Positions 7,234-22,282 of a stretch of 38,087 nt of DNA are shown here, in pieces. Made by a program: the position numbers and the translations under genes. The DNA is from a virus. Lineage: Duplodnaviria; Caudoviricetes. The stretch lies in IMG/VR virus record IMGVR_UViG_3300049052_000004, positions 1-38,087 of that record; one strand, given 5' to 3'. How positions within the stretch are numbered: position 1 is the first letter of the stretch; the number at the start of each line of letters is the position of its first letter. The notes under the pieces are model-generated. The model saw nothing but the letters and a program-made list of their open reading frames with translations, ran no database searches and was not told the origin of the DNA.

Positions 7234-7265
7234 GCCTCCCGAGCCTGTAGCGCTGCTCGGGAGGC
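7234..7265 (+). terminator. Putative terminator hairpin (no U-tract)
   Basis: Perfect 11-bp stem GCCTCCCGAGC/GCTCGGGAGGC just after the stop at 7226. Confidence 0.6.
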
Positions 7266-7272
7266 TGGCCCC

Positions 7273-7301
7273 TTGTAGGGGCTCCCCCCGTGCGCTACAC
7301 T
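7273..7301 (+). promoter_or_regulatory. SigA-like promoter of the base-modification operon
   Basis: TTGTAG-N17-TACACT; the -35 sits in a GCCCCT-TGT-AGGGGC mini-hairpin. Confidence 0.65.
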
Positions 7302-7352
7302 TAGTACAGCCGGGTTCCCCGCTCGGCTCTAGTCCACAAGGAGAACGCAACA

Positions 7353-8117
7353 ATGCTGACATATAACAACGACTCGATCGTCCTGGCTCTGTCCAAGGCT
7401 CCGATCGACACCCGCACAGGTAACCGAGTGCTGTACGGAGTCAGCTGGGTTGCTGACCAGGACAGCATGATTGGCCAGGTGAACGAGGACTGGGTCCGCC
7501 GAGAGCTGGCCTGGTTCCGCTCGGGTAGTGACAAGCTCTCTGACATGGAGCCTCCCGTCCCTCAGCTGTTCCAGGCGTGTGCAGGCACCGACGGCAAGGT
7601 GAACAGCGCCTACGGCCACATCCTGTTCGCTCCGCGTCTCTTCACGACGCCAGAGGGACAGGGTCGGTGGCTCAGCCTGTTCGACCGAGTCGTAGACACC
7701 TTCCTCGAAGAGGGTAAGGGCACGCGCCACGCGGTCGCCATCATCAGCGACCGTGACGTACACATGCTGGCCAAGCTCAACGGCCGGAACGACTTCATCT
7801 GCACGAATGCGCTCAACTTCATGATCGACGATGACAACCGGCTGCACATCGTGGCTCAGATGCGAAGCATGGATGCCGTGTTCGGCTACCGTGCTGACTA
7901 CTCCATGTGGGACTACCTCATGAACTACCTGCTCGGCTACCTGGAGCTGAACTACCCTGAGATCGAGCGTGGGAGCATTACGTTCCAGGTTGCCAACCTG
8001 CACGTCTACCCGCGCCACTTCAGGCTGCTGGAGCAGGAGGCCGAGCAGCGCCACGACAGACTCAACAGAGAGCTGCGGGAGATTGTGCGTGAGGCCAACC
8101 GAACGGACTTCTCATGA
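7353..8117 (+). CDS. dCMP hydroxymethylase (T4 gp42-like; thymidylate synthase superfamily)
   Basis: RELAWF, GKVNSAYG, DFICTN (catalytic Cys), MRSMDAVFGYRADY and LHVYPRHF parallel T4 gp42 RELEWY, GEINSNYG, DFMCTN, MRSNDVVFGFRNDY and LHVYSRHF (recalled); Asp at the position of E. coli ThyA Asn177. Confidence 0.85.
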   Translation: MLTYNNDSIVLALSKAPIDTRTGNRVLYGVSWVADQDSMIGQVNEDWVRRELAWFRSGSDKLSDMEPPVPQLFQACAGTDGKVNSAYGHILFAPRLFTTPEGQGRWLSLFDRVVDTFLEEGKGTRHAVAIISDRDVHMLAKLNGRNDFICTNALNFMIDDDNRLHIVAQMRSMDAVFGYRADYSMWDYLMNYLLGYLELNYPEIERGSITFQVANLHVYPRHFRLLEQEAEQRHDRLNRELREIVREANRTDFS

Positions 8118-8431
8118 ACCCGTGGGCTCTGGCCTGGGACGTCTTCGGCTGGATCGTGCTGGTGTTCGTCGTCGTAATGGTGGTGCTCATCATGCTCGGA
8201 GTCATCGAGCGAGCTTTCAGCAGCATGATCGGTAAGTACCGAGCAGCCAAGCGCGAGCGGACTGAGACCGTAGAAGACTACGACAGCTTCATGGCTCGGG
8301 CTGTGGGGATGTCGTCTAGCCTGTACGGGAGTGACCTACTGCTCGACCGTAAGCAGCACGCCGCGTTCCGTAACGGTGCTCGATGGGCTTGGAGCGACCT
8401 GCACCAGGGCCAGCAAGAAGACACCCCATGA
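8114..8431 (+). CDS. Membrane-anchored hypothetical protein (105 aa)
   Basis: ATGA coupling; N-terminal TM helix VFGWIVLVFVVVMVVLIMLGVI. Confidence 0.75.
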   Translation: MNPWALAWDVFGWIVLVFVVVMVVLIMLGVIERAFSSMIGKYRAAKRERTETVEDYDSFMARAVGMSSSLYGSDLLLDRKQHAAFRNGARWAWSDLHQGQQEDTP

Positions 8432-8646
8432 ACGGCAAAGAGGTCGAGCTGCACGGAGGCCCCTGGCACGGCCGGAAGCTAGTCATCGATCCAGGGTTGA
8501 GGTTCATCACTGTGGCTAAGCCATCTGAGCCCCTGTCGGTCATGGAGGCCAAAGCCGACTTCAAGAATGTGCACTCCATCACTGGCACGTACTCTCAGGT
8601 GGCGAACCGGCCTTACGACTACGAGTGGGACGGGTGGCAGAAGTGA
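8428..8646 (+). CDS. Hypothetical protein (72 aa, ELHGGPWHG...YEWDGW)
   Basis: 4-bp overlaps at both ends. Confidence 0.7.
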   Translation: MNGKEVELHGGPWHGRKLVIDPGLRFITVAKPSEPLSVMEAKADFKNVHSITGTYSQVANRPYDYEWDGWQK

Positions 8647-9590
8647 ACCCGCACCTGAGACTCATCAAGGAAGCTCGGGCTAGCTGGCTGTACCCCATCT
8701 ACGTGCCGAGCTACACTCGGGCAGGTAGAGCACCGTTCTTGGAGCAGCTTCACGGCACGCCTCTCACAGTCCGTAACCGGGTGCACATCGTGGTACGGCC
8801 TGAAGACAAGTCTGACTACAGGAACAGCTACCCGTGGGCGAAGATCGTCGTGGAGGCTCAGCCTGGTATCGGTCCAGCACGTATGCGCTGCTTGATAGAC
8901 GCTGAGGCTCGTGGCTACTCTCGTATCGTGGTAGTGGATGACGACATCGAGAAGGTGTCTCTCCTTCGCCGAGTGGTGAGGCCCGGACAGCCGGACTACG
9001 CTCAACGGTACTCCAGTAGCATCACAGGCATCAGCAAGCCTGCTCTGACCGTGCGCACCTTGGCTGCGACCTGCCTGCTCGCTGATGGGGTGTTCGCTCT
9101 CCGAGAGGATGCCGCTTACGGTGCTGCTCGAAACGCGCTGTTCGCTGGTCCTGTGGCTGATCCACGTATCGGTGCCATGCTGCACAAGCAGAGCTTCCCG
9201 GCCTGTGTCATGCTCATCGACGTCGAGCGCTTCCGTATGCGTGAGATGCCTGAGCCCTTCCACTACCACGGGGAGGATCTAGCCATGTTCCTCGACACCC
9301 TGGAGAGCGGTCAGCGAGCGTTCCAGCTGCCTGCTGTGGCCTATGACCAGAACAGCACCATCCGCACTACCATCCCGCTCGACCCTCTGGATGAGGTCGG
9401 CAGGCCACACCTGGAGTACACTCCCGAGTTCTATCCGAACGTGCACCCGTTCCTCCGAGCTTCCGTCAAGAACAAGCTTGGCGGAGTCATGCGGATAGGT
9501 GTAAACTGGAACCGGCTCTACAAGGCCACCGGAACGGGACCGGACATTATCCCGATGAACGAGCTGCTGCAAGCAACCAAGGAGATCTAA
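8643..9590 (+). CDS. GT-A fold DNA-base glycosyltransferase (TET/JBP-associated, GREB1/JGT-like)
   Basis: YPIYVPSYTR N-terminal motif, GIGPAR, VVVDDDI (DxD), GED; GTGA overlap start; lies in the hydroxymethylase operon. Confidence 0.8.
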   Translation: MNPHLRLIKEARASWLYPIYVPSYTRAGRAPFLEQLHGTPLTVRNRVHIVVRPEDKSDYRNSYPWAKIVVEAQPGIGPARMRCLIDAEARGYSRIVVVDDDIEKVSLLRRVVRPGQPDYAQRYSSSITGISKPALTVRTLAATCLLADGVFALREDAAYGAARNALFAGPVADPRIGAMLHKQSFPACVMLIDVERFRMREMPEPFHYHGEDLAMFLDTLESGQRAFQLPAVAYDQNSTIRTTIPLDPLDEVGRPHLEYTPEFYPNVHPFLRASVKNKLGGVMRIGVNWNRLYKATGTGPDIIPMNELLQATKEI

Positions 9591-9591
9591 C

Positions 9592-10173
9592 GTGTTCATC
9601 GCATTCGAAGGGCCTGACAACACAGGCAAGAGCACTAGTGCTGCACACCTGACGCACAACGGCCAAGCCATCTACAACGCCACCAAGGAGAACTACCAGC
9701 AGGCACGTATCGACCTGGCTGAAGAGCCGGATCTGGTTCAGTGCTTCGACCGTATCGACTGGCTCAGTCACATGGTCTACAGGCTGGCCCTGCCCGAGCA
9801 CGAGTGGAACGACGATCGGGTGCGTACGGTGTTCGCCATGCCGGACACTCACTTGGTGTTCCGAGTGCACGGAGACGCCTACGTCAACGACATCGACGAC
9901 GAGCTGTACGACACCGGAACGGTCGCTCTCGTGAACCCCGTGTACCGGCTCCAGGCCGAGCACCTGGTTCGCCTGAACCGGCACCAGAGCTACAGGCTGT
10001 TCAAGAGCATCTCTGTGGTGGAGGTTCAGTACGACCCCTTCACCGGCTCGTTCCATCAGAGGCTCCTGTCTCATGACAGTGCTGCGTTCGGTTGGTACAC
10101 CGAGCACGACGAGATCGACTCTGACTCTGCGCTGCTCGGGTTGTTCCAAAGTGTCGAGCAGTACACAGTCTAA
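9592..10173 (+). CDS. dNMP kinase (thymidylate kinase-like), probable hm-dCMP kinase
   Basis: MFIAFEGPDNTGKST P-loop; FDR motif; AAGGAG SD. Confidence 0.8.
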   Translation: MFIAFEGPDNTGKSTSAAHLTHNGQAIYNATKENYQQARIDLAEEPDLVQCFDRIDWLSHMVYRLALPEHEWNDDRVRTVFAMPDTHLVFRVHGDAYVNDIDDELYDTGTVALVNPVYRLQAEHLVRLNRHQSYRLFKSISVVEVQYDPFTGSFHQRLLSHDSAAFGWYTEHDEIDSDSALLGLFQSVEQYTV

Positions 10174-10876
10174 GCGAGAGCAGCACCCTCACCTGGGACA
10201 CCTGTTCCTGATAGGGGTGCTGTACAGACGAGCGGCTGATAAGACACTCCCTAAGGCCACACGCAGAGAAGCTGAGGACGAGATCCTCCGCTACCGTGAT
10301 GAAGGCCTCATCCTACAGAAGTACGGCAAGGAGGAACTACTCGTGGCTAAGAAGACCCGAGCCCACACCAAGGATCCCAAGACCTTCACCGGTCAGGGCA
10401 TCCTGTTCGCTGTGGTAGCTGACCGAGAGGCCATGCGGACAGGCCGGGTGAGCACTATCGACGTGATCACCCAGGCCATCGAAGCAGCGCTGGATGCAGG
10501 CCACGAGGACAGCGAGAGCATCGCCAGGTACCTCACGACGAGCGCCTTCCAGCACGAGCCGGACAAGCGTGTGAGGTTCAACAGTGTTCTCAAGGCCAGC
10601 GACGCTGTAGGAGCGCAGATGCTCCGGAAGCTCTACAACAGCTACAACGACCTGGCTGCTCTCATTGATGAGGAGGAAGACCCCCGTAAGAAGGCCGAGC
10701 TGAAGGCTGAGGCGACCGGATTTGCAGAGGCCTTGCAGATTGTCCTCAGCCCGTTCAGCACTGAAGACCCGGAAGACCCCAGGCTCGTTGACTGGGAGCA
10801 AGTCGACCGGCTGACCGAAGCATTCGAGAAGGAACAGCGCTTCGTGCGCAAGGAGAGAAAAGGGAAGCCCCAGTGA
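10151..10876 (+). CDS. Hypothetical protein (start uncertain: GTG 10151, or GTG 10343 with AAGGAGG SD)
   Basis: Open frame filling the gap between kinase and dCTPase; GTGA coupling at the 3' end. Confidence 0.7.
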   Translation: MSSSTQSKREQHPHLGHLFLIGVLYRRAADKTLPKATRREAEDEILRYRDEGLILQKYGKEELLVAKKTRAHTKDPKTFTGQGILFAVVADREAMRTGRVSTIDVITQAIEAALDAGHEDSESIARYLTTSAFQHEPDKRVRFNSVLKASDAVGAQMLRKLYNSYNDLAALIDEEEDPRKKAELKAEATGFAEALQIVLSPFSTEDPEDPRLVDWEQVDRLTEAFEKEQRFVRKERKGKPQ

Positions 10877-11277
10877 GCATTTACGATGAGATCCAGAGCA
10901 AGAAGGCCGCAGCTGAGCAGGCGGGTCAGGGCATGGAATTCCTGCTCGGGCTGCAATCCAAGGTCGAGGCACAGTGGGGACGCACGGTTGACCCTGCTGA
11001 CCCTGAGGCTGTGAGTGGCTACGTGAGAGACGTGGTGCTCTGTGCTACCGACGAGCTTCACGAGCTGCTTGCTGAGGTCCACTGGAAGCCGTGGAAGGAC
11101 AGCAGAGGCATCCGAGACATCGACGCTTACCGGGAAGAGCTGGCCGACGTGCTGCACTTCATCCTGGACCTGTACTTGGCAGCAGGCCTCACGGGGCAGG
11201 ACGTGGTCAACGACTATGTGGCCAAGCATGAAGAGAACCTACGACGGCTGCACAACACGCAGTATCGGATCAGCTGA
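10873..11277 (+). CDS. All-alpha NTP pyrophosphohydrolase (MazG/dimeric dUTPase; T4 gp56 dCTPase-like)
   Basis: DELHELLAEVHWKPWK...EELADVLHF...Y..K..EN..R signature. Confidence 0.85.
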   Translation: MSIYDEIQSKKAAAEQAGQGMEFLLGLQSKVEAQWGRTVDPADPEAVSGYVRDVVLCATDELHELLAEVHWKPWKDSRGIRDIDAYREELADVLHFILDLYLAAGLTGQDVVNDYVAKHEENLRRLHNTQYRIS

Positions 11278-11738
11278 TGCCACGGAGTAGCTGGGACCGG
11301 GTGTGGTCTGACGTAGCCTTGGCCGTAGCTCGGCGAAGCGCGTGCTCTCGGGCTCAGGTTGGTGCTGTACTAGTGAAGGAGAACCGGGTAGTCTCCACCG
11401 GCTACAACGGGCCAGCAAGCGGCCACCCTGCTCCTACTGCACTCGGTTGTCAGGCCTACTGCCTGAGAGCCAAGTCTGGAGCGATAGCTTCCGATGAGTA
11501 CGGGTACTCGTGCCCGAGCATCCATGCTGAGGCGAACGCGCTGCTGTACGCTAGTCGAGCCGATACCGTTGGGGCCACACTCTATGTGACCCACGCTCCG
11601 TGCGCTGACTGTGCCAAGCTCATCAGCAACAGCGGTATCAAGGCGGTCGTCATGCTGGAGCAGCCCCCCGAGCACCGGCCAAACCCCATCCCCTATCTGG
11701 AGTCGTGCAGAATCTGGGTAGGTGTGATGCAGCCATGA
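11277..11738 (+). CDS. dCMP deaminase
   Basis: RSACSRAQVGAVLV, GYNG, HAEANA and PCADC Zn motifs. Confidence 0.92.
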   Translation: MPRSSWDRVWSDVALAVARRSACSRAQVGAVLVKENRVVSTGYNGPASGHPAPTALGCQAYCLRAKSGAIASDEYGYSCPSIHAEANALLYASRADTVGATLYVTHAPCADCAKLISNSGIKAVVMLEQPPEHRPNPIPYLESCRIWVGVMQP

Positions 11739-11878
11739 TGGATGTCGAAGAAGAGCTATACCAGATGAGGGTTCGCCTAGAGATACGCATCAATCGTCAG
11801 TACATGGCTGCTGTGTCTCGTCTTCATCAAGTAGATATCCGCACGGTGTACATCTGGCACGCGACAGGGATAGTGTGA
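11735..11878 (+). CDS. Small hypothetical protein (47 aa, MMDVEEELYQ...), absent from the ORF track
   Basis: ATGA overlap with the deaminase stop and TGATG overlap with the helicase start; fills the gap exactly. Confidence 0.6.
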   Translation: MMDVEEELYQMRVRLEIRINRQYMAAVSRLHQVDIRTVYIWHATGIV

Positions 11879-13257
11879 TGAAACTCCGAGACTCTCAACG
11901 CATAGCGCTAGAACGGCTCTGCGAGCCTGGTAGAACGTTTGGTGCTCTGTGGGCCGAGCCTCGTAGCGGCAAGACAGCCGTGGCGCTGAGCTGGCTGAAC
12001 TACCTGAAGCCTCAGGTGGTTGTGATTGTAGGCCCGAAGATCGCAGAGGCAACCTGGAGAACAGAAGCAGCCAAGTGGCTGACCGTGCCGTACAGGTTCT
12101 TTCCTCTGACAGCAGGCAACACCTACCCAAACCCGAGCGAGTTCCGAGGCATGGCTGTTCTGTTCGTGAACTACGAGCAGTTCAACAAGGCACCCTGGAA
12201 GAGGCTTCGGCCGTACCTGAGCATCCTGGCTAACAGTGTCGACAAGCAAGGGGCGATGTTCCTTGATGAGAGCCACATGATCAAGACCCCTAGCTCGGTG
12301 CAAGGTCGTAACATCAGGCCTCTGGCAGCAAGCTGGAAGTACAGGCTGCTCATGACTGGCACACCGGTCACCAACCCGAGCCAGATCGATGCTGTGTACG
12401 GCCAGTGGACCTTCGTAGACCCGAGCATCAGAGACCACTGGCCTACGGCAAGCGACTTCCGAGAGCACTTCGGAGAGTGGACAACAGTCAAAGGTTTCCC
12501 AGAGCTGATCCGACCCCGTAACCAGTACGAGCTGAACAGGTACCTACAACCCAATGTGATCACTATGGTAGGCCCTGGCAAGCCGGTACCCATCCACAAG
12601 GTGATGCACCGAGTACCGGAGTCAGTTCGTGAGCTGCACCACCAGATGCTGAAAGAGGGTGTCGTGAATGTGGGTGAGCATGAGGTCGTAGGCCTCAATC
12701 CGCTCACGCGGCTCCTTCGCATGCGCACTCTCATGGGTGGCTGGCTGAAGGACGACCAAGGTGTGTCGTTCACAGTCAAGGAGGCTGCTCGGGCTCGACT
12801 GAAGGCTCTCGGCCACACTCTCAGCAAGTGCGAAGGCAAGATCATCGTGGCGTGTACTCACCTGCATGAGGTCAGGCTGGTGCGTCGGTATCTGCGTCTC
12901 AAGGGCATCGGGCATCTGGTCATCACAGGGGCAACCAAAGACAAGAACTACGTCATCGAGCAGTTCCAGCAGGACCGAGAGGCTCGGGTGCTGCTCGTGC
13001 AGCCAAGGACTGTTGCGATGGCCGTAGACATCTCAGTAGCTCAGGACCTCATCTGGTACACGAGCGACTTCAACTACGTCACGTTCAAGCAGGCCAGCGA
13101 CCGGATCAAGCTCTCCCCTGCCAGCCCGCGCGTTTGGTTCCTGTGTGGCCGTGGTACGGTGGATGAAGACGTGTGGACCACTCTCCAAGAAGACCACGAC
13201 CACCTACAGAAGGTGGTCAAGCGAATCAAGAAGCGCGCGCAGCCCTACAAACACTAG
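11878..13257 (+). CDS. SNF2-like superfamily 2 DNA helicase
   Basis: LRDSQ Q-motif, EPRSGKT, FLDESH, MTGTP, QASDRI motif VI. Confidence 0.88.
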   Translation: MKLRDSQRIALERLCEPGRTFGALWAEPRSGKTAVALSWLNYLKPQVVVIVGPKIAEATWRTEAAKWLTVPYRFFPLTAGNTYPNPSEFRGMAVLFVNYEQFNKAPWKRLRPYLSILANSVDKQGAMFLDESHMIKTPSSVQGRNIRPLAASWKYRLLMTGTPVTNPSQIDAVYGQWTFVDPSIRDHWPTASDFREHFGEWTTVKGFPELIRPRNQYELNRYLQPNVITMVGPGKPVPIHKVMHRVPESVRELHHQMLKEGVVNVGEHEVVGLNPLTRLLRMRTLMGGWLKDDQGVSFTVKEAARARLKALGHTLSKCEGKIIVACTHLHEVRLVRRYLRLKGIGHLVITGATKDKNYVIEQFQQDREARVLLVQPRTVAMAVDISVAQDLIWYTSDFNYVTFKQASDRIKLSPASPRVWFLCGRGTVDEDVWTTLQEDHDHLQKVVKRIKKRAQPYKH

Positions 13258-14028: not shown

Positions 14029-15876
14029 ATGCAACTTCTCATCAGCGACAGCATCGCAGAAGTACGTGAGTACCTAGCGAGCAGCACGGCTCCGCTCATC
14101 ACCGACATCGAGACCACAGCTCTGACTGTTGGTAAGGGCCGCATCCTGTGTGTTGCCTTTGCACCGTACGACCGCGACGACGTGCTCGTGTGGTGGCCAC
14201 AGAGCCTCGATGAGATTGCTCAGCTACGGCTCACCAAGATGGTCGCTCACAACAGCACGTTCGACAAGCGCTGGCTAGAGAGCTACGGGGCCAAGTGCCG
14301 AGTCGTCTGGGACACGATGCTCATGGCTCAGCTGCTCGACGAGAACCACCCCATCGGCCTCAAAGATCTGGGAGAGCGGCTGCTCGGATACAAGGCCTGG
14401 TCTGACGACAATGTGGCCGACTTGGGAGCCGAGTTCGAGCCTCACATCTCCAAGGCAGAGCAAGCCAAGAGCAAGCGTCGGATCAGCATGTACGCTGGCA
14501 CTGATGTGCACGTGACCCGAGAGCTGATGAAGTGGCAGCGTAGGTACATTCGGACTCAGCTGAAGCCGGGGGAGAACCCTGTACGAGTTATGCGAGAGAT
14601 TCTCATTCCGGCTATCGACCCTCTCATCCAGATGGAAGACAACCGTCTTCCCGTGAGGCTCGGCCTGGTGCGCAAGACACAAGCCCGAGTCGAGGCTAAG
14701 ATCGCAGCTATTGAGCAGAAGCTCGACGCCTCCATCCCAGACAAAGACCGCTGGCCGGAATGGTTGCAGAAGACCAAACCCAAGTGGGGTAACACCAACT
14801 GGACCAAGTGGTGGCTATACGAGTATCAGGGTGCTCTGTGCCCTCGACGCACCAAGCCAACCAAGACGTGGCCCGAAGGTAATCCAGGCATGAGCCAGGA
14901 GGACCTATCCAAGATCGATCACCCTGCTGCTCGCCTGCTGAGTGAGCGGTCAACGCTGTACAAGCAGCTGACAGGCTTCCTGAACCCTATCCTGGAACGT
15001 ACCCGAGACGGTCGGATCAGCACGAGCTACAACCTAGCAGGCACCGTCACAGGCAGGTTGAGCAGCAGCAGCCCCAAGGGTGACCCTGGTCTCAACTCAC
15101 AGCAGATTCCGCGTGACAAGGCCACACGTAACCTTTTCGGGGAGCGTGGGCAGGTGTGGATCGAAGCAGACTTCAGCCAGCTAGAGCTTCGGGTGGCTGC
15201 TGTGCTCAGCGGAGACCCGACCATGCTCAGCCTGTTCGAGCGGGATGAAGACATCCATACGTACATGGCTCACCGTCTGGTGCGTGGGGGTGAGGTCACC
15301 AAGGAGCATCGCAGCCTGGCTAAGGGGGTCAACTTCGGCTTCATCTACGGCATGCATGCAAAGCACTTCGCTGATTACGTGCGTGAGAGCTACGGAGTGG
15401 TCATCACAAAGAAGGAGGCTGAGGCCTTCCGCGAGGAGTACTTCACAACCTTCAGCTCTCTGCCCGAGTGGTACCGGAAGCAGCGTCAAGAGGCTATCGA
15501 GCACGGGGGTACCCACAACGAGTTCGGTCGGTTCCGGCACCTGCCTAAGGTGTACAACTCGGACTACTGGGTGCAGGAGAATGCCTTCCGGCAGGCGATC
15601 AACTTCCCTGTGCAGTCGCTTGGCAGTGACTTTATGCTGCTTAGTATTGGTAGGCTTGGCAGGGACTTGCGGCTCCCCGAGCTGGGGGCTAAACTTGTGG
15701 CTACCGTGCACGACTCGGTCTGTCTTACTGCCCCGTACAGCACAGCCAAGAGAGTCGGACGGATAGTCAAGGAGACGATGGAAAAGGCTGATGACACACT
15801 CGACCGTAAATTCTTCCTCAAAGCGGATGTCACGCTCTCGCGCTGCTGGGGAGGCGAGCCGCTTGCAGAGTTCTAG
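14029..15876 (+). CDS. Family A DNA polymerase with 3'-5' exonuclease (no 5'-3' exonuclease domain)
   Basis: Exonuclease motifs DIETT, HNSTFD, YAGTD; polymerase motifs TGRLSS, ADFSQLELR, RSLAKGVNFGFIYG, VHDS. Confidence 0.95.
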   Translation: MQLLISDSIAEVREYLASSTAPLITDIETTALTVGKGRILCVAFAPYDRDDVLVWWPQSLDEIAQLRLTKMVAHNSTFDKRWLESYGAKCRVVWDTMLMAQLLDENHPIGLKDLGERLLGYKAWSDDNVADLGAEFEPHISKAEQAKSKRRISMYAGTDVHVTRELMKWQRRYIRTQLKPGENPVRVMREILIPAIDPLIQMEDNRLPVRLGLVRKTQARVEAKIAAIEQKLDASIPDKDRWPEWLQKTKPKWGNTNWTKWWLYEYQGALCPRRTKPTKTWPEGNPGMSQEDLSKIDHPAARLLSERSTLYKQLTGFLNPILERTRDGRISTSYNLAGTVTGRLSSSSPKGDPGLNSQQIPRDKATRNLFGERGQVWIEADFSQLELRVAAVLSGDPTMLSLFERDEDIHTYMAHRLVRGGEVTKEHRSLAKGVNFGFIYGMHAKHFADYVRESYGVVITKKEAEAFREEYFTTFSSLPEWYRKQRQEAIEHGGTHNEFGRFRHLPKVYNSDYWVQENAFRQAINFPVQSLGSDFMLLSIGRLGRDLRLPELGAKLVATVHDSVCLTAPYSTAKRVGRIVKETMEKADDTLDRKFFLKADVTLSRCWGGEPLAEF

Positions 15877-20621: not shown

Positions 20622-21491
20622 ATGACGAACTTCAACTTCACCGAGACCCGCACCTTCGAAGGCTACGAGTACATCGTCTTCGAGGGAAGCTTCTACAAGG
20701 GCTGCTCTCGCTGTGGAGGCACCGGCCACCACTCGTTCAACGGATTCGACAGCATCTGTTACAAGTGCGGCGACACTCTTGATGCTCGACTGGGCGACCG
20801 GTTCGAGAATGAGGCCGCAGCTCAGAAGTGGTGTCACGAGCGGTTCGTTCGCCGGGCTCAGCGGGAACGCAAGGCTGAGGCCGAGCGGGTCGAGAAGAAC
20901 AACCGTCGTCAGGCCGCGTGGGACCGTCTCAAGGAGGCGCACCCTGAGGTCTTCGCTCTGGTAGACCAGGCTCGGTTCAACGAGGACAACGCTGAGCGGG
21001 ATCAGTTCGTTCTCAAGCTCGCTGACCAGATGTGGAATCTGGACAACAATGGCTACACTGACCGCCAGATCGCAGCTCTTCAGCGGGTCGTTGACCAGCG
21101 GAAAGCTCGTACCGAGCAGGCCGAGCTGAACCCGGCTCCGACTGGCCGAGTGGTAGTCACTGGCACCATCAAGTCGGCAAAGCTCCAGGACGGCGACTAC
21201 GGTGTGGCCTACAAGATCCTGGTCGAGTCTGATGAAGGCTTCAAGGTGTGGTGCTCTCTCCCGAGCGCTCAGGCTGCTCAGGCGATGGAGAGCTTCTACG
21301 AGGAGATCGAGGCTCAGGGTTACAGCGCTCACGACTTCGGCTCGGGTGTCTGGCTCATTGGCTCTCACGGAGACGACCGCTTCCCTGGAGTCAAGGGTCG
21401 TAGGATCACCTTCACGGCCACACTCAGCCCGAGCAAGGACGACAAGGGCTTCGCTTTCGGTAGCCGTCCCACCAAGGGGAGCTGGCTCTAG
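20622..21491 (+). CDS. Hypothetical protein with an N-terminal CxxCxGxG Zn finger and an OB-fold-like C-terminus (289 aa)
   Basis: CSRCGGTG...CYKCG; beta-rich C-terminus; start set from the promoter position. Confidence 0.8.
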   Translation: MTNFNFTETRTFEGYEYIVFEGSFYKGCSRCGGTGHHSFNGFDSICYKCGDTLDARLGDRFENEAAAQKWCHERFVRRAQRERKAEAERVEKNNRRQAAWDRLKEAHPEVFALVDQARFNEDNAERDQFVLKLADQMWNLDNNGYTDRQIAALQRVVDQRKARTEQAELNPAPTGRVVVTGTIKSAKLQDGDYGVAYKILVESDEGFKVWCSLPSAQAAQAMESFYEEIEAQGYSAHDFGSGVWLIGSHGDDRFPGVKGRRITFTATLSPSKDDKGFAFGSRPTKGSWL

Positions 21492-21494
21492 GGC

Positions 21495-21523
21495 TTGAGA
21501 TCTCGACGAGAGAGGCGCAAACT
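21495..21523 (+). promoter_or_regulatory. SigA-like promoter, leaderless for ATG 21530
   Basis: TTGAGA-N17-CAAACT; 6 nt to the ATG. Confidence 0.6.
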
Positions 21524-21529
21524 AATCAC

Positions 21530-21727
21530 ATGACGCACAAAGTGAACTTCTCAGTCCAGACTCAGGCGCTTGCTTACCAGGCCGGGTTCCAAGAGGCTCT
21601 GTCTTTCCTCGTAGACGCTCTCGTAGAAGGAGGCACCATCAACCACTTGATCGAGCGTCTTGAAGACAATGCAAACCCTGAGACGAAGGCCCGCATTGAG
21701 GCCTACTACGCAGCCCGAGACAGCTGA
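21530..21727 (+). CDS. Hypothetical protein (65 aa)
   Basis: Last plus-strand ORF; has its own promoter. Confidence 0.7.
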   Translation: MTHKVNFSVQTQALAYQAGFQEALSFLVDALVEGGTINHLIERLEDNANPETKARIEAYYAARDS

Positions 21728-21816
21728 GCCGCCTCAGGCTGGGGCCTACCAGGTAGGTAGGCTCGCGCTGCTCGGTCGCTGAGCGTACAGCAGGCCACCA
21801 AAGCCACCGACAAACG

Positions 21817-21856
21817 AGAGACCCACCTCCGGCCAACTGGCTAGGAGTGGGTCTCT
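21817..21856. terminator. Hairpin at the convergence of the two arms (probable terminator)
   Basis: AGAGACCCAC/GTGGGTCTCT stem with inner pairing; CGTTTGT follows on the minus strand. Confidence 0.7.
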
Positions 21857-21872
21857 GGCTCGTGGGAGGCTG

Positions 21873-21956
21873 CTACTGACAGCTCTCGCACTGAAGAAGG
21901 TCCATGGGGTCTACGGGAGCGTGGTACTCTCCGACCTTCTCGGTCTCCTGGTCCAT
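21873..21956 (-). CDS. 27-aa peptide MDQETEKVGEYHAPVDPMDLLQCESCQ
   Basis: TGATG coupling with the holin stop; GGAGG SD; ends just before the terminator; C-terminal CxxC. Confidence 0.7.
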   Translation of the reverse strand: MDQETEKVGEYHAPVDPMDLLQCESCQ

Positions 21957-22282
21957 CAGTTGCCTCCCGAAGTGACCATCATGTCCTGAGCCTTAGCCGA
22001 GACGGTAGTCGGCTTCCAGAGGCCGTAGTGCATTGCCACGGCGATGAGGAAGGCAGTCAAGGCCAGCACGAGCCCCGTTCCAAGGTCGTAGGCTGTGCCT
22101 GCGTTGACTGCTGCCAGCAGCTCCGTGAGCAGGCCGGTGACCGCAGCGAGCACGGCCAGCAGCACAGCCTTGACTCCGCTGTGCGTGACCCGAGTCGTGA
22201 CCAGGCCGACGATGATGGGGAGCACGGTGCTCACCAGTAGGCCGAGCACGAGAGCTGGAGGCAGGTTGAATACGATGTTCAT
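21956..22282 (-). CDS. Holin (108 aa, about 3 TM)
   Basis: AAGGAG SD; hydrophobic helices; HYGLWKP motif; downstream of the endolysin. Confidence 0.75.
   Translation of the reverse strand: MNIVFNLPPALVLGLLVSTVLPIIVGLVTTRVTHSGVKAVLLAVLAAVTGLLTELLAAVNAGTAYDLGTGLVLALTAFLIAVAMHYGLWKPTTVSAKAQDMMVTSGGN

What the first reader, a model, noticed from the sequence alone, without database searches (positions are those of the whole stretch)
7273..11738. Complete T4-like glycosyl-hydroxymethylcytosine pathway in a small PolA actinobacterial siphophage
Seen in sequence: one promoter drives a tightly packed, mostly translationally coupled run of a gp42-like dCMP hydroxymethylase, a GT-A glycosyltransferase, a dNMP kinase, a WKPWK-type all-alpha NTP pyrophosphatase and a dCMP deaminase, upstream of the helicase and PolA. 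Established: T-even phages use gp56 dCTPase, gp42, gp1 kinase, Cd deaminase and glucosyltransferases to replace C with glucosyl-hmC and so block restriction and CRISPR nucleases. Inference: this 38-kb high-GC phage runs the same logic (dCTP to dCMP to hm-dCMP to hm-dCTP to DNA to glycosyl-hmC) with a family A rather than family B polymerase and a different kinase and glycosyltransferase. Routine annotation would label these genes as thymidine metabolism and miss the system.
Basis: partly seen in the sequence, partly recalled or inferred. Interest (0 to 1): 0.88.

Follow-up and report, generated by a model that had tools for sequence, protein, structure and literature searches.

The report
Sugar-coated cytosine in Microbacterium phages
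This small soil-type phage and about 190 cultured relatives carry a gene filed as thymidylate synthase that has the active-site residues of T4's cytosine-modifying enzyme, usually beside a glycosyltransferase, so they likely coat cytosines in their DNA with sugar, though their avoidance of restriction sites suggests the coat is probably incomplete.

Summary
The genes are real. The window is a Microbacterium cluster-EA-like siphophage. ORF 7353 matches T4 gp42 at all published hydroxymethylase positions (S85, Y87, D147, C150, D174, D182) and fails the signatures of ThyA, the RB69 hydroxylase and SPO1. Beside it lie a TAGT-family GT-A glycosyltransferase, a thymidylate-kinase-fold protein, a gp56-like pyrophosphatase and a dCMP deaminase, behind a conserved promoter. 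Corrections: three further ORFs interrupt the run. The five genes are not a fixed set: in 28 non-redundant relatives the kinase is in 28, a GT in 26, exactly one of two unrelated pyrophosphatases in 28, the deaminase in 9. PolA with modified cytosine is already known (Xp12; MetaGPA contigs). Against a complete T4-like shield: the genome excludes restriction sites (GAGCTC 0 against 31 expected, GCCGGC 0 against 18; palindrome observed/expected 0.63, against 0.87-0.97 for Xp12 and T-even pieces and 0.38-0.48 for two actinophages lacking the module). Best reading: hm-dCMP is made, enters DNA and is glycosylated, probably at only part of the cytosines. No DNA was analysed. My ten paper searches found no report of this for cluster EA. 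Cultured phages with zero, one or two GTs make it directly testable.

The parts
7234..7265 (+). GC-rich hairpin after the upstream gene, likely terminator
   Evidence: 11-bp perfect arms; -26.9 kcal/mol, z -4.2, 0 of 200 shuffles as good; similar hairpins seen upstream in many relatives
7273..7301 (+). sigma-A-type promoter-like site (TTG...17-nt spacer...TACACT)
   Evidence: Pattern in 36 of 50 distinct upstream regions of relatives vs 0.7 shuffled (post hoc pattern); missed by consensus scan
7353..8117 (+). gp42-like dCMP hydroxymethylase (annotated thymidylate synthase in relatives)
   Evidence: PDB 1b49 E 8e-28; E51,S85,Y87,R125,D147,C150,R171,S172,D174,D182,H217,Y219 equal T4 E60,S94,Y96,R123,D145,C148,R168,S169,D171,D179,H216,Y218; D/C/D/D signature in 120 of the best 120 homologues
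8114..8431 (+). 105-aa protein with hydrophobic N-terminus, phrog_4198, no known role
8428..8646 (+). 72-aa protein, phrog_5300, no known role
8643..9590 (+). GT-A glycosyltransferase of the TAGT family (start may be 8634)
   Evidence: Pfam PF20691 35.2 bits over cut-off 27.5; phrog_842 beta-glucosyl-HMC-alpha-glucosyltransferase E 7.9e-10; R26, D99-D101, E211-D212 invariant in 18 sequences, matching the R...DDD...ED motif of Pyle et al.
9592..10173 (+). P-loop nucleoside-monophosphate-kinase-fold protein
   Evidence: AF2 pLDDT 92.7; VIA Z 11.1 YorR (rmsd 3.7, 142 aligned), 10.5 deoxyadenosine kinase, 10.3 yeast TMPK; present in 28 of 28 relatives
10151..10876 (+). conserved helical protein of unknown function (phrog_4086); second strong start at 10343
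   Evidence: 27 of 28 relatives; no Pfam, NCBIfam or PDB match; only 20 representatives library-wide, most beginning near the internal start
10873..11277 (+). gp56-like all-alpha dNTP pyrophosphatase (WKPWK)
   Evidence: Pfam dUTPase_2; 24-27% to T4 and RB69 gp56 with 22 invariant columns in 15 sequences; best PDB hits are dimeric dUTPases
11277..11738 (+). dCMP-deaminase-family zinc enzyme (HAE, PCxxC)
   Evidence: Pfam PF00383 E 4e-24; motifs at 83 and 108; in 9 of 28 relatives
11875..13257 (+). SNF2-type helicase, coupled to the run through a 46-aa ORF at 11738-11878
14029..15876 (+). family A DNA polymerase with 3'-5' exonuclease
   Evidence: Pfam PF00476 E 5e-65

Best explanation
The operon likely makes 5-hydroxymethyl-dCMP, feeds it into phage DNA and adds a sugar to it afterwards, probably covering only part of the cytosines. 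Steps: (1) ORF 7353 turns dCMP into hm-dCMP with methylene-THF and water (active-site identity with T4 gp42 shown; activity inferred, about 0.9). (2) The TMPK-fold kinase phosphorylates hm-dCMP, which host kinases would handle poorly; a host NDP kinase completes hm-dCTP (fold shown; substrate inferred, about 0.75). (3) The pyrophosphatase lowers dCTP and/or dUTP and supplies dCMP (family shown, specificity not determinable). (4) PolA inserts hmC (inferred; precedent Xp12). (5) The single TAGT-type GT-A transfers a hexose from a host nucleotide sugar directly to hmC in DNA (family and motifs shown; acceptor and sugar inferred, about 0.75). (6) The deaminase is an optional pool-balancing enzyme. 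Continued exclusion of Type II sites indicates that a real share of sites stays cleavable, through partial substitution or partial glycosylation (inferred, about 0.55-0.6).
For: Residue signature identical to T4 gp42 and different from ThyA, RB69 gp48, Xp12 and SPO1 gp29 at the positions defined by Lee et al. PMC13326640 and Park et al. PMC6400193; MilA ribo-specificity positions carry the deoxy residues R125 and S172. The EA clade (100/100) falls inside the gp42 group (97/93). Kinase in 28 of 28; a pyrophosphatase in 28 of 28, one of two unrelated families and never both or neither; a TAGT-like GT directly before the kinase in 26 of 28, drawn from three divergent groups. Other phages keep a gp42-like gene beside a separate ThyX (L071, L037). 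PRA-PH and dCMP deaminase co-occur with TS in C-modified contigs (PMC8670742; bioRxiv 2024.12.05.627091). For partial cover: 6 of 35 palindromic hexamers below 0.2 of expectation vs 4 of 1592 non-palindromic; eight EA-like genomes 0.52-0.72; Xp12, 44RR2.8t.2 and T4/RB69 pieces 0.87-0.97; Veracruz and Theresita 0.38-0.48; GT-less Pherbot lowest of the eight. Fully hmC DNA resists NaeI and PstI, and hmC coliphages show almost no avoidance (PMC7653180; PMC6286503).
Against: No nucleoside, enzyme or digest data. R124 of T4 (phosphate binding) is His here and the EA stem branch is long (2.76), so its place in the tree is unsure. Kinase sequence matches cover only the P-loop and Foldseek E-values are weak. 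Avoidance does not differ between gp56-like (0.72) and PRA-PH (0.68) carriers, and four relatives show little (0.83-0.90). Controls are few, are partial genomes with other hosts and base compositions, and only Xp12, T4, RB69 and SPO1 have measured modifications in papers I saw. Two relatives lack any GT.
Confidence: 0.52

Rival explanations
1. Complete T4-like replacement: the pyrophosphatase is a dCTPase, all C becomes hmC and most is glycosylated; site avoidance has another cause (host enzymes that cut or require modified C in these hexamers, or older selection).
For: A pyrophosphatase is always present (28 of 28); the window's is gp56-like; Xp12, fully substituted, has a PRA-PH gene next to its TS as most EA phages do; TS-based pathways with measured DNA (T4, RB69, DLP3, Xp12) replace C fully.
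Against: Exact zeros of GAGCTC, GCCGGC, GGGCCC, GGCGCC or CAGCTG that differ between lineages imply recent selection by Type II enzymes; hmC DNA resists NaeI and PstI and 5mC DNA resists ApaI and ApaLI; 31 distant gp42-like loci average 0.91.
Confidence: 0.3
2. hmC enters DNA, but the GT acts on something else (virion proteins or cell surface) and merely travels with the operon.
For: Actinophage virion glycosylation exists (passing mention and reference in PMC12582341; the primary paper was not held); GT is absent in 2 of 28.
Against: The GT is of the DNA-acting TAGT family; three divergent TAGT groups occupy the same slot between hydroxymethylase and kinase, far from structural genes.
Confidence: 0.08
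3. The deaminase works on hm-dCTP or hm-dCMP, so hmU also enters DNA and the JGT-related GT makes a base-J-like glucosyl-hmU.
For: More than 60% of 56 active phage deaminases of this family preferred 5mdCTP or 5hmdCTP (bioRxiv 2024.12.05.627091); phage GT-A enzymes resemble trypanosome JGT.
Against: The deaminase is missing from 19 of 28 relatives, 17 of which keep a GT; no dTTP-removing partner is evident.
Confidence: 0.06
4. Ordinary thymidine metabolism (dTMP synthase, TMP kinase, dUTPase, deaminase), as annotated in GenBank, or a different C5 product (methyl or hydroxyl).
For: GenBank names; strong restriction-site avoidance; kinase and pyrophosphatase folds fit thymidine supply.
Against: Asp at the N177 position, Asp at L143, Asp kept at D169; NCBIfam ThyA models score 16-24 bits against cut-offs of 175-327; no DHFR among the window ORFs scanned.
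Confidence: 0.04

Closest known systems
T-even glucosyl-hmC pathway (T4 gp42, gp1, gp56, Cd, alpha/beta-GT; T2/T6 TAGT)
   Same: gp42-type active site; gp56-like pyrophosphatase and dCMP deaminase in the window; TAGT-family GT related to the T6-type second glucosyltransferase (phrog_842).
   Different: 38-42 kb PolA siphophage; TMPK/YorR-fold kinase; a lone GT-A, not GT-B, would add the first sugar; pyrophosphatase interchangeable with PRA-PH; deaminase optional; genome still excludes restriction sites.
TET-associated GT-A DNA glycosyltransferases and ThyS + GT-A contigs (Pyle et al., bioRxiv 10.1101/2023.12.21.572611)
   Same: Same GT-A motif; the paper reports many ThyS-linked GT-A contigs with dCMP deaminase.
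   Different: Its tested GTs were paired with methyltransferase and TET; 'Microbacterium' does not occur in the main text; its Table S4 of NCBI genomes could not be seen and may list EA phages.
Xanthomonas phage Xp12 5mC pathway and MetaGPA modified-C contigs
   Same: PolA phage with N177D TS homologue, PRA-PH, deaminase and helicase in one block.
   Different: Xp12 makes 5mC, has DHFR and no GT in the 38 kb fetched, is fully substituted and shows little site avoidance.
RB69/DLP3/RL38JI glycosyl-5-hydroxycytosine pathway (PMC13326640)
   Same: TS homologue, GT and a YorR/TMPK-like kinase side by side (DLP3_078 has the same top structural match, 3kb2).
   Different: Those enzymes carry D169N and make 5-hydroxy-dCMP; the window keeps Asp; no sugar-synthesis genes here.
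Microbacterium cluster EA phages (PMC7302621)
   Same: The window is a relative: terminase 67-76%, TS 66-73% identical in listed rows; same gene order.
   Different: Published descriptions call the gene thymidylate synthase and mention no DNA modification in the passages found; the three cultured members examined carry PRA-PH MazG and no deaminase.

Membership tests
dCMP hydroxymethylase (T4 gp42 type) | Catalytic Cys148 and Glu60 | tested here: met
   C150, E51; invariant in 35 sequences
dCMP hydroxymethylase (T4 gp42 type) | Asp179 (N177D) cytosine specificity | tested here: met
   D182; 120 of 120 best homologues
dCMP hydroxymethylase (T4 gp42 type) | Asp145 three residues before Cys, with Ser94 and Tyr96 (hydroxymethylation signature, PMC6400193) | tested here: met
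   D147, S85, Y87
dCMP hydroxymethylase (T4 gp42 type) | Arg123-Arg124 phosphate clamp | tested here: inconclusive
   R125 kept, second Arg is His; SPO1 gp29 also lacks it
dCMP hydroxymethylase (T4 gp42 type) | Makes hm-dCMP from dCMP and methylene-THF | not testable with these tools
   needs enzyme assay
5-hydroxy-dCMP synthase (RB69 gp48 type) | D169N | tested here: not met
   D174 vs RB69 N186
Thymidylate synthase ThyA / dUMP hydroxymethylase | Asn177 | tested here: not met
   Asp in the window; Asn in E. coli ThyA and SPO1 gp29
TAGT-family GT-A DNA glycosyltransferase | PF20691 over cut-off and R...DDD...ED motif | tested here: met
   35.2 vs 27.5 bits; motifs invariant
TAGT-family GT-A DNA glycosyltransferase | Transfers sugar to hydroxymethyl-pyrimidine in DNA | not testable with these tools
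   needs assay or nucleoside analysis
T4 gp56 dCTPase/dUTPase | All-alpha fold motifs DE..E, WK.WK, E..D..HF | tested here: met
T4 gp56 dCTPase/dUTPase | Hydrolyses dCTP | not testable with these tools
   best solved relatives are dUTPases; no specificity signature was found or tested
T4 gp1-type dNMP kinase | gp1-like structure and hm-dCMP acceptance | tested here: inconclusive
   NMP-kinase fold shown; top rows are YorR, dNK, TMPK; gp1 not among the 50 rows shown
Complete T-even glucosyl-hmC system | Full replacement of C, seen as absence of restriction-site avoidance | tested here: not met
   indirect test only: palindrome O/E 0.63 vs 0.92-0.97 in T-even pieces (basis PMC6286503)
Complete T-even glucosyl-hmC system | Glycosyl-hmdC in virion DNA | not testable with these tools
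   needs LC-MS

The most novel reading that the evidence does not exclude
Cluster EA phages, among the most often isolated Microbacterium phages, run a tunable, partial glycosyl-hmC system: a gp42-type enzyme with an exchangeable GT-A cassette (none, one of three types, or two in tandem) writes different, possibly undescribed glycans on a fraction of cytosines, trading Type II protection against modification-dependent nucleases, while site avoidance covers the rest. That would be a TS-based pathway that departs from the full replacement seen in the measured cases, available in about 190 cultured phages on a harmless host.
Probability: 0.3. Interest if true: 0.78.

Novelty: new variant of a known kind. 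Interest (0 to 1): 0.55.

Why it matters
It re-annotates a core gene in 191 GenBank phage records and predicts hypermodified DNA in a widely held teaching and research collection. Natural variants with zero, one or two GTs and three GT types offer a ready panel for new DNA glycans and for asking how much modification pays against Type II versus modification-dependent defence in actinobacteria. The mismatch between a gp42 pathway and persistent restriction-site avoidance is itself a question that one LC-MS run and one digest panel would settle.

Tried and rejected
Idea that the longer EA MazG is a fusion of the window's pyrophosphatase and deaminase: no similarity. Sequence and profile searches of PDB for the GT and for the 10151 protein: nothing at E<=1; single-sequence fold of the 10151 protein unusable (pLDDT 47); Atlas gave no usable hit. 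Kinase vs RB69p045: only the P-loop aligned. TAGT search of the whole Pherbot record: no match. Skylord was fetched as an unmodified control and dropped from that role because its TS has an N177D signature. Theresita carries a PurA-like gene, so it is only a control for lacking this module. The 61 of 61 gp42 signature in distant loci is partly built in by the search patterns and includes T4, so it is not used as evidence. Deaminase enrichment with the gp56-like gene (7 of 11 vs 2 of 17, Fisher p 0.01) is not corrected for kinship. No tRNA genes. Four look-ups of earlier scan findings returned nothing. No published digest or nucleoside data for EA phages were found.
Full report
Identity. The window is a virus record of 38,087 bases, about 60% GC, with terminase, portal, capsid, SNF2 helicase, PolA and exonuclease. 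Its terminase matches 193 phage records at E<=1e-100, 192 of them Microbacterium phages; these are cluster EA and relatives. ORF 7353 matches 191 Microbacterium records at 60-80% identity, mostly annotated thymidylate synthase in the rows shown; the kinase matches 191 and the GT 168.

Observation. The five ORFs are intact and closely packed. Three more ORFs lie among them (8114, 8428, 10151), and the run continues into the helicase. A hairpin (7234-7265, z -4.2) precedes a promoter-like site at 7273-7301. The consensus scan missed it, but the pattern TTG-N19-21-TAnnnT is upstream of the gene in 36 of 50 distinct relatives against 0.7 in shuffles; I chose the pattern after seeing the sequences.

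The key enzyme. The only PDB sequences matched at E<=0.01 are T4 dCMP hydroxymethylase (8e-28) and MilA. Lee et al. (PMC13326640; abstract, passages and section 28 read) define L143, C146, D169 and N177 as discriminating positions. Park et al. (PMC6400193; passages) add Ser94 and Tyr96. Against fetched references the window reads D/C/D/D like T4; RB69 gp48 reads E/C/N/D, Xp12 N/C/D/D, E. coli ThyA L/C/D/N, SPO1 gp29 D/C/D/N. S85 and Y87 match. One departure: T4 R124 is His. The signature holds in 120 of the best 120 of 287 homologues, the window's own protein included. In a 32-row tree the eight EA-like rows form a clade (100/100) inside the gp42 group (97/93), on a long stem. This is as strong as sequence evidence gets; activity is not shown.

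Partners. The GT passes the TAGT cut-off and carries the R...DDD...ED motif that Pyle et al. give for DNA-acting GT-A enzymes (preprint passages and section 9). The kinase model (pLDDT 92.7) aligns best with YorR (Z 11.1, rmsd 3.7, 142 residues), deoxyadenosine kinase and TMPK; Foldseek and profile matches are weak. The pyrophosphatase aligns with T4 and RB69 gp56 at 24-27%, while its solved relatives are dimeric dUTPases, so dCTP specificity is open. The deaminase has its zinc motifs; related phage enzymes often prefer 5mdCTP or 5hmdCTP (bioRxiv 2024.12.05.627091, passages).

Co-occurrence. Of 74 EA-like loci, 45 reached the helicase; these reduce to 28 at under 95% TS similarity, three of them cultured phages. 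Kinase 28 of 28; unknown 10151 protein 27; GT 26 (one locus with two; three divergent groups, the third below the Pfam cut-off); deaminase 9; all five as in the window 7. The pyrophosphatase slot holds a PRA-PH protein in 17 and the gp56-like protein in 11, never both and never neither. This exchange of unrelated enzymes argues that the function is required. Pherbot has no TAGT anywhere in its record.

Evidence against a full shield. The window lacks GAGCTC (0 vs 30.8 expected) and GCCGGC (0 vs 17.8), nearly lacks CTCGAG (2 vs 25.5), and also avoids GAGGTG and GCGGTG. Six of 35 palindromic hexamers are under 0.2 of expectation, against 4 of 1592 non-palindromic ones. Eight EA-like genomes give 0.52-0.72, each with its own excluded sites; GT-less Pherbot is lowest and two-GT Zepp highest. 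Pieces of Xp12 (0.87), 44RR2.8t.2 (0.92) and T4 with RB69 (0.97) show little avoidance; Veracruz (30 kb, 0.38) and Theresita (0.48), which lack the module, show more. Rusinov et al. (PMC6286503, passages) found 2.4% of sites avoided in hydroxymethylase-bearing coliphages against 55.8% in others. Flodman et al. (PMC7653180, abstract and part 1 of Results) found hmC DNA resistant to NaeI and PstI. The EA values are intermediate, which fits partial protection. Limits: few controls, partial genomes, other hosts; four relatives show 0.83-0.90; the two pyrophosphatase types do not differ.

Mechanism. I commit to hm-dCMP synthesis, phosphorylation, insertion by PolA and post-replicative glycosylation by the lone GT-A using a host nucleotide sugar, with incomplete cover. 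Shown: genes, families, residues, gene order, avoidance. Inferred: every reaction, the sugar, the degree of substitution.

What is known. T4 supplies the logic. PolA with modified cytosine is established in Xp12 and is among the top neighbours of deaminases in modified-C contigs. ThyS plus GT-A contigs were reported in bulk. Other phages found here pair a gp42-like gene with PolA (L040, L071; Kurnik). For cluster EA, passages of PMC7302621 and PMC9224216 give only the name thymidylate synthase, and part 1 of 2 of PMC13741009 notes glycosyltransferases and MazG without a role. Ten searches returned no paper linking EA phages to modified cytosine. The library lacks most subscription papers; Iyer et al. 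2013, the journal version of Pyle et al. and Freeman et al. 2023 were not held, and Pyle's Table S4 may already list these phages.

Verdict. Real and well supported as a cytosine-hypermodification module; overstated as complete and T4-like; a new variant of a known kind. Interest 0.55.

Noticed in passing
L144:34912-37056 and 20927-21995 (Microbacterium phage Skylord): Its thymidylate synthase has Leu three residues before the Cys and Asp at the N177 position, with DHFR, a WKPW pyrophosphatase and a kinase; palindrome O/E is 0.96 with the same low sites as Xp12 (TGATCA, TTCGAA). It likely carries 5-methylcytosine DNA.
   Followed up: partly
L158:26543-42180 (Micrococcus phage Kurnik): Kinase, gp42-like enzyme, deaminase and PolA in one block, plus PRA-PH, two annotated glycosyltransferases (one weakly GT25-like) and a C5 methyltransferase; little site avoidance (0.85). 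A second cultured actinophage with a predicted hmC pathway.
   Followed up: partly
L021:5642-6529; L017:11019-11966; L020:11162-12097; L136:11259-12200: Divergent TAGT-like glycosyltransferases (24% identity or less to the window's) occupy the same slot before the kinase, suggesting different sugars.
   Followed up: partly
window 10151-10876: Conserved unknown protein with a strong internal ribosome site at 10328 and GTG at 10343 (177 aa); distant homologues begin there, yet the upstream 64 codons are also conserved. Present twice in L026/L126-type contigs.
   Followed up: partly
window, whole: Non-palindromic hexamers GAGGTG (1 vs 25.5) and GCGGTG (0 vs 14.7) are excluded, which may mark Type IIG, III or BREX-type host sites.
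   Followed up: no
L071:3878-8541; L040:6083-10597: Unrelated phage contigs pair a gp42-like gene with PolA; L071 also has a kinase, deaminase and ThyX.
   Followed up: partly
L001:10147-10740 (TeddyBear gp41): Annotated phosphoesterase has a 2H domain with a weak Pfam match to anti-CBASS Acb1 (E 0.011, below cut-off).
   Followed up: no
L157:36713-37969 (Theresita): This EA-structural hybrid lacks the module and has a PurA-like gene instead, suggesting a swap of one base-modification strategy for another.
   Followed up: no
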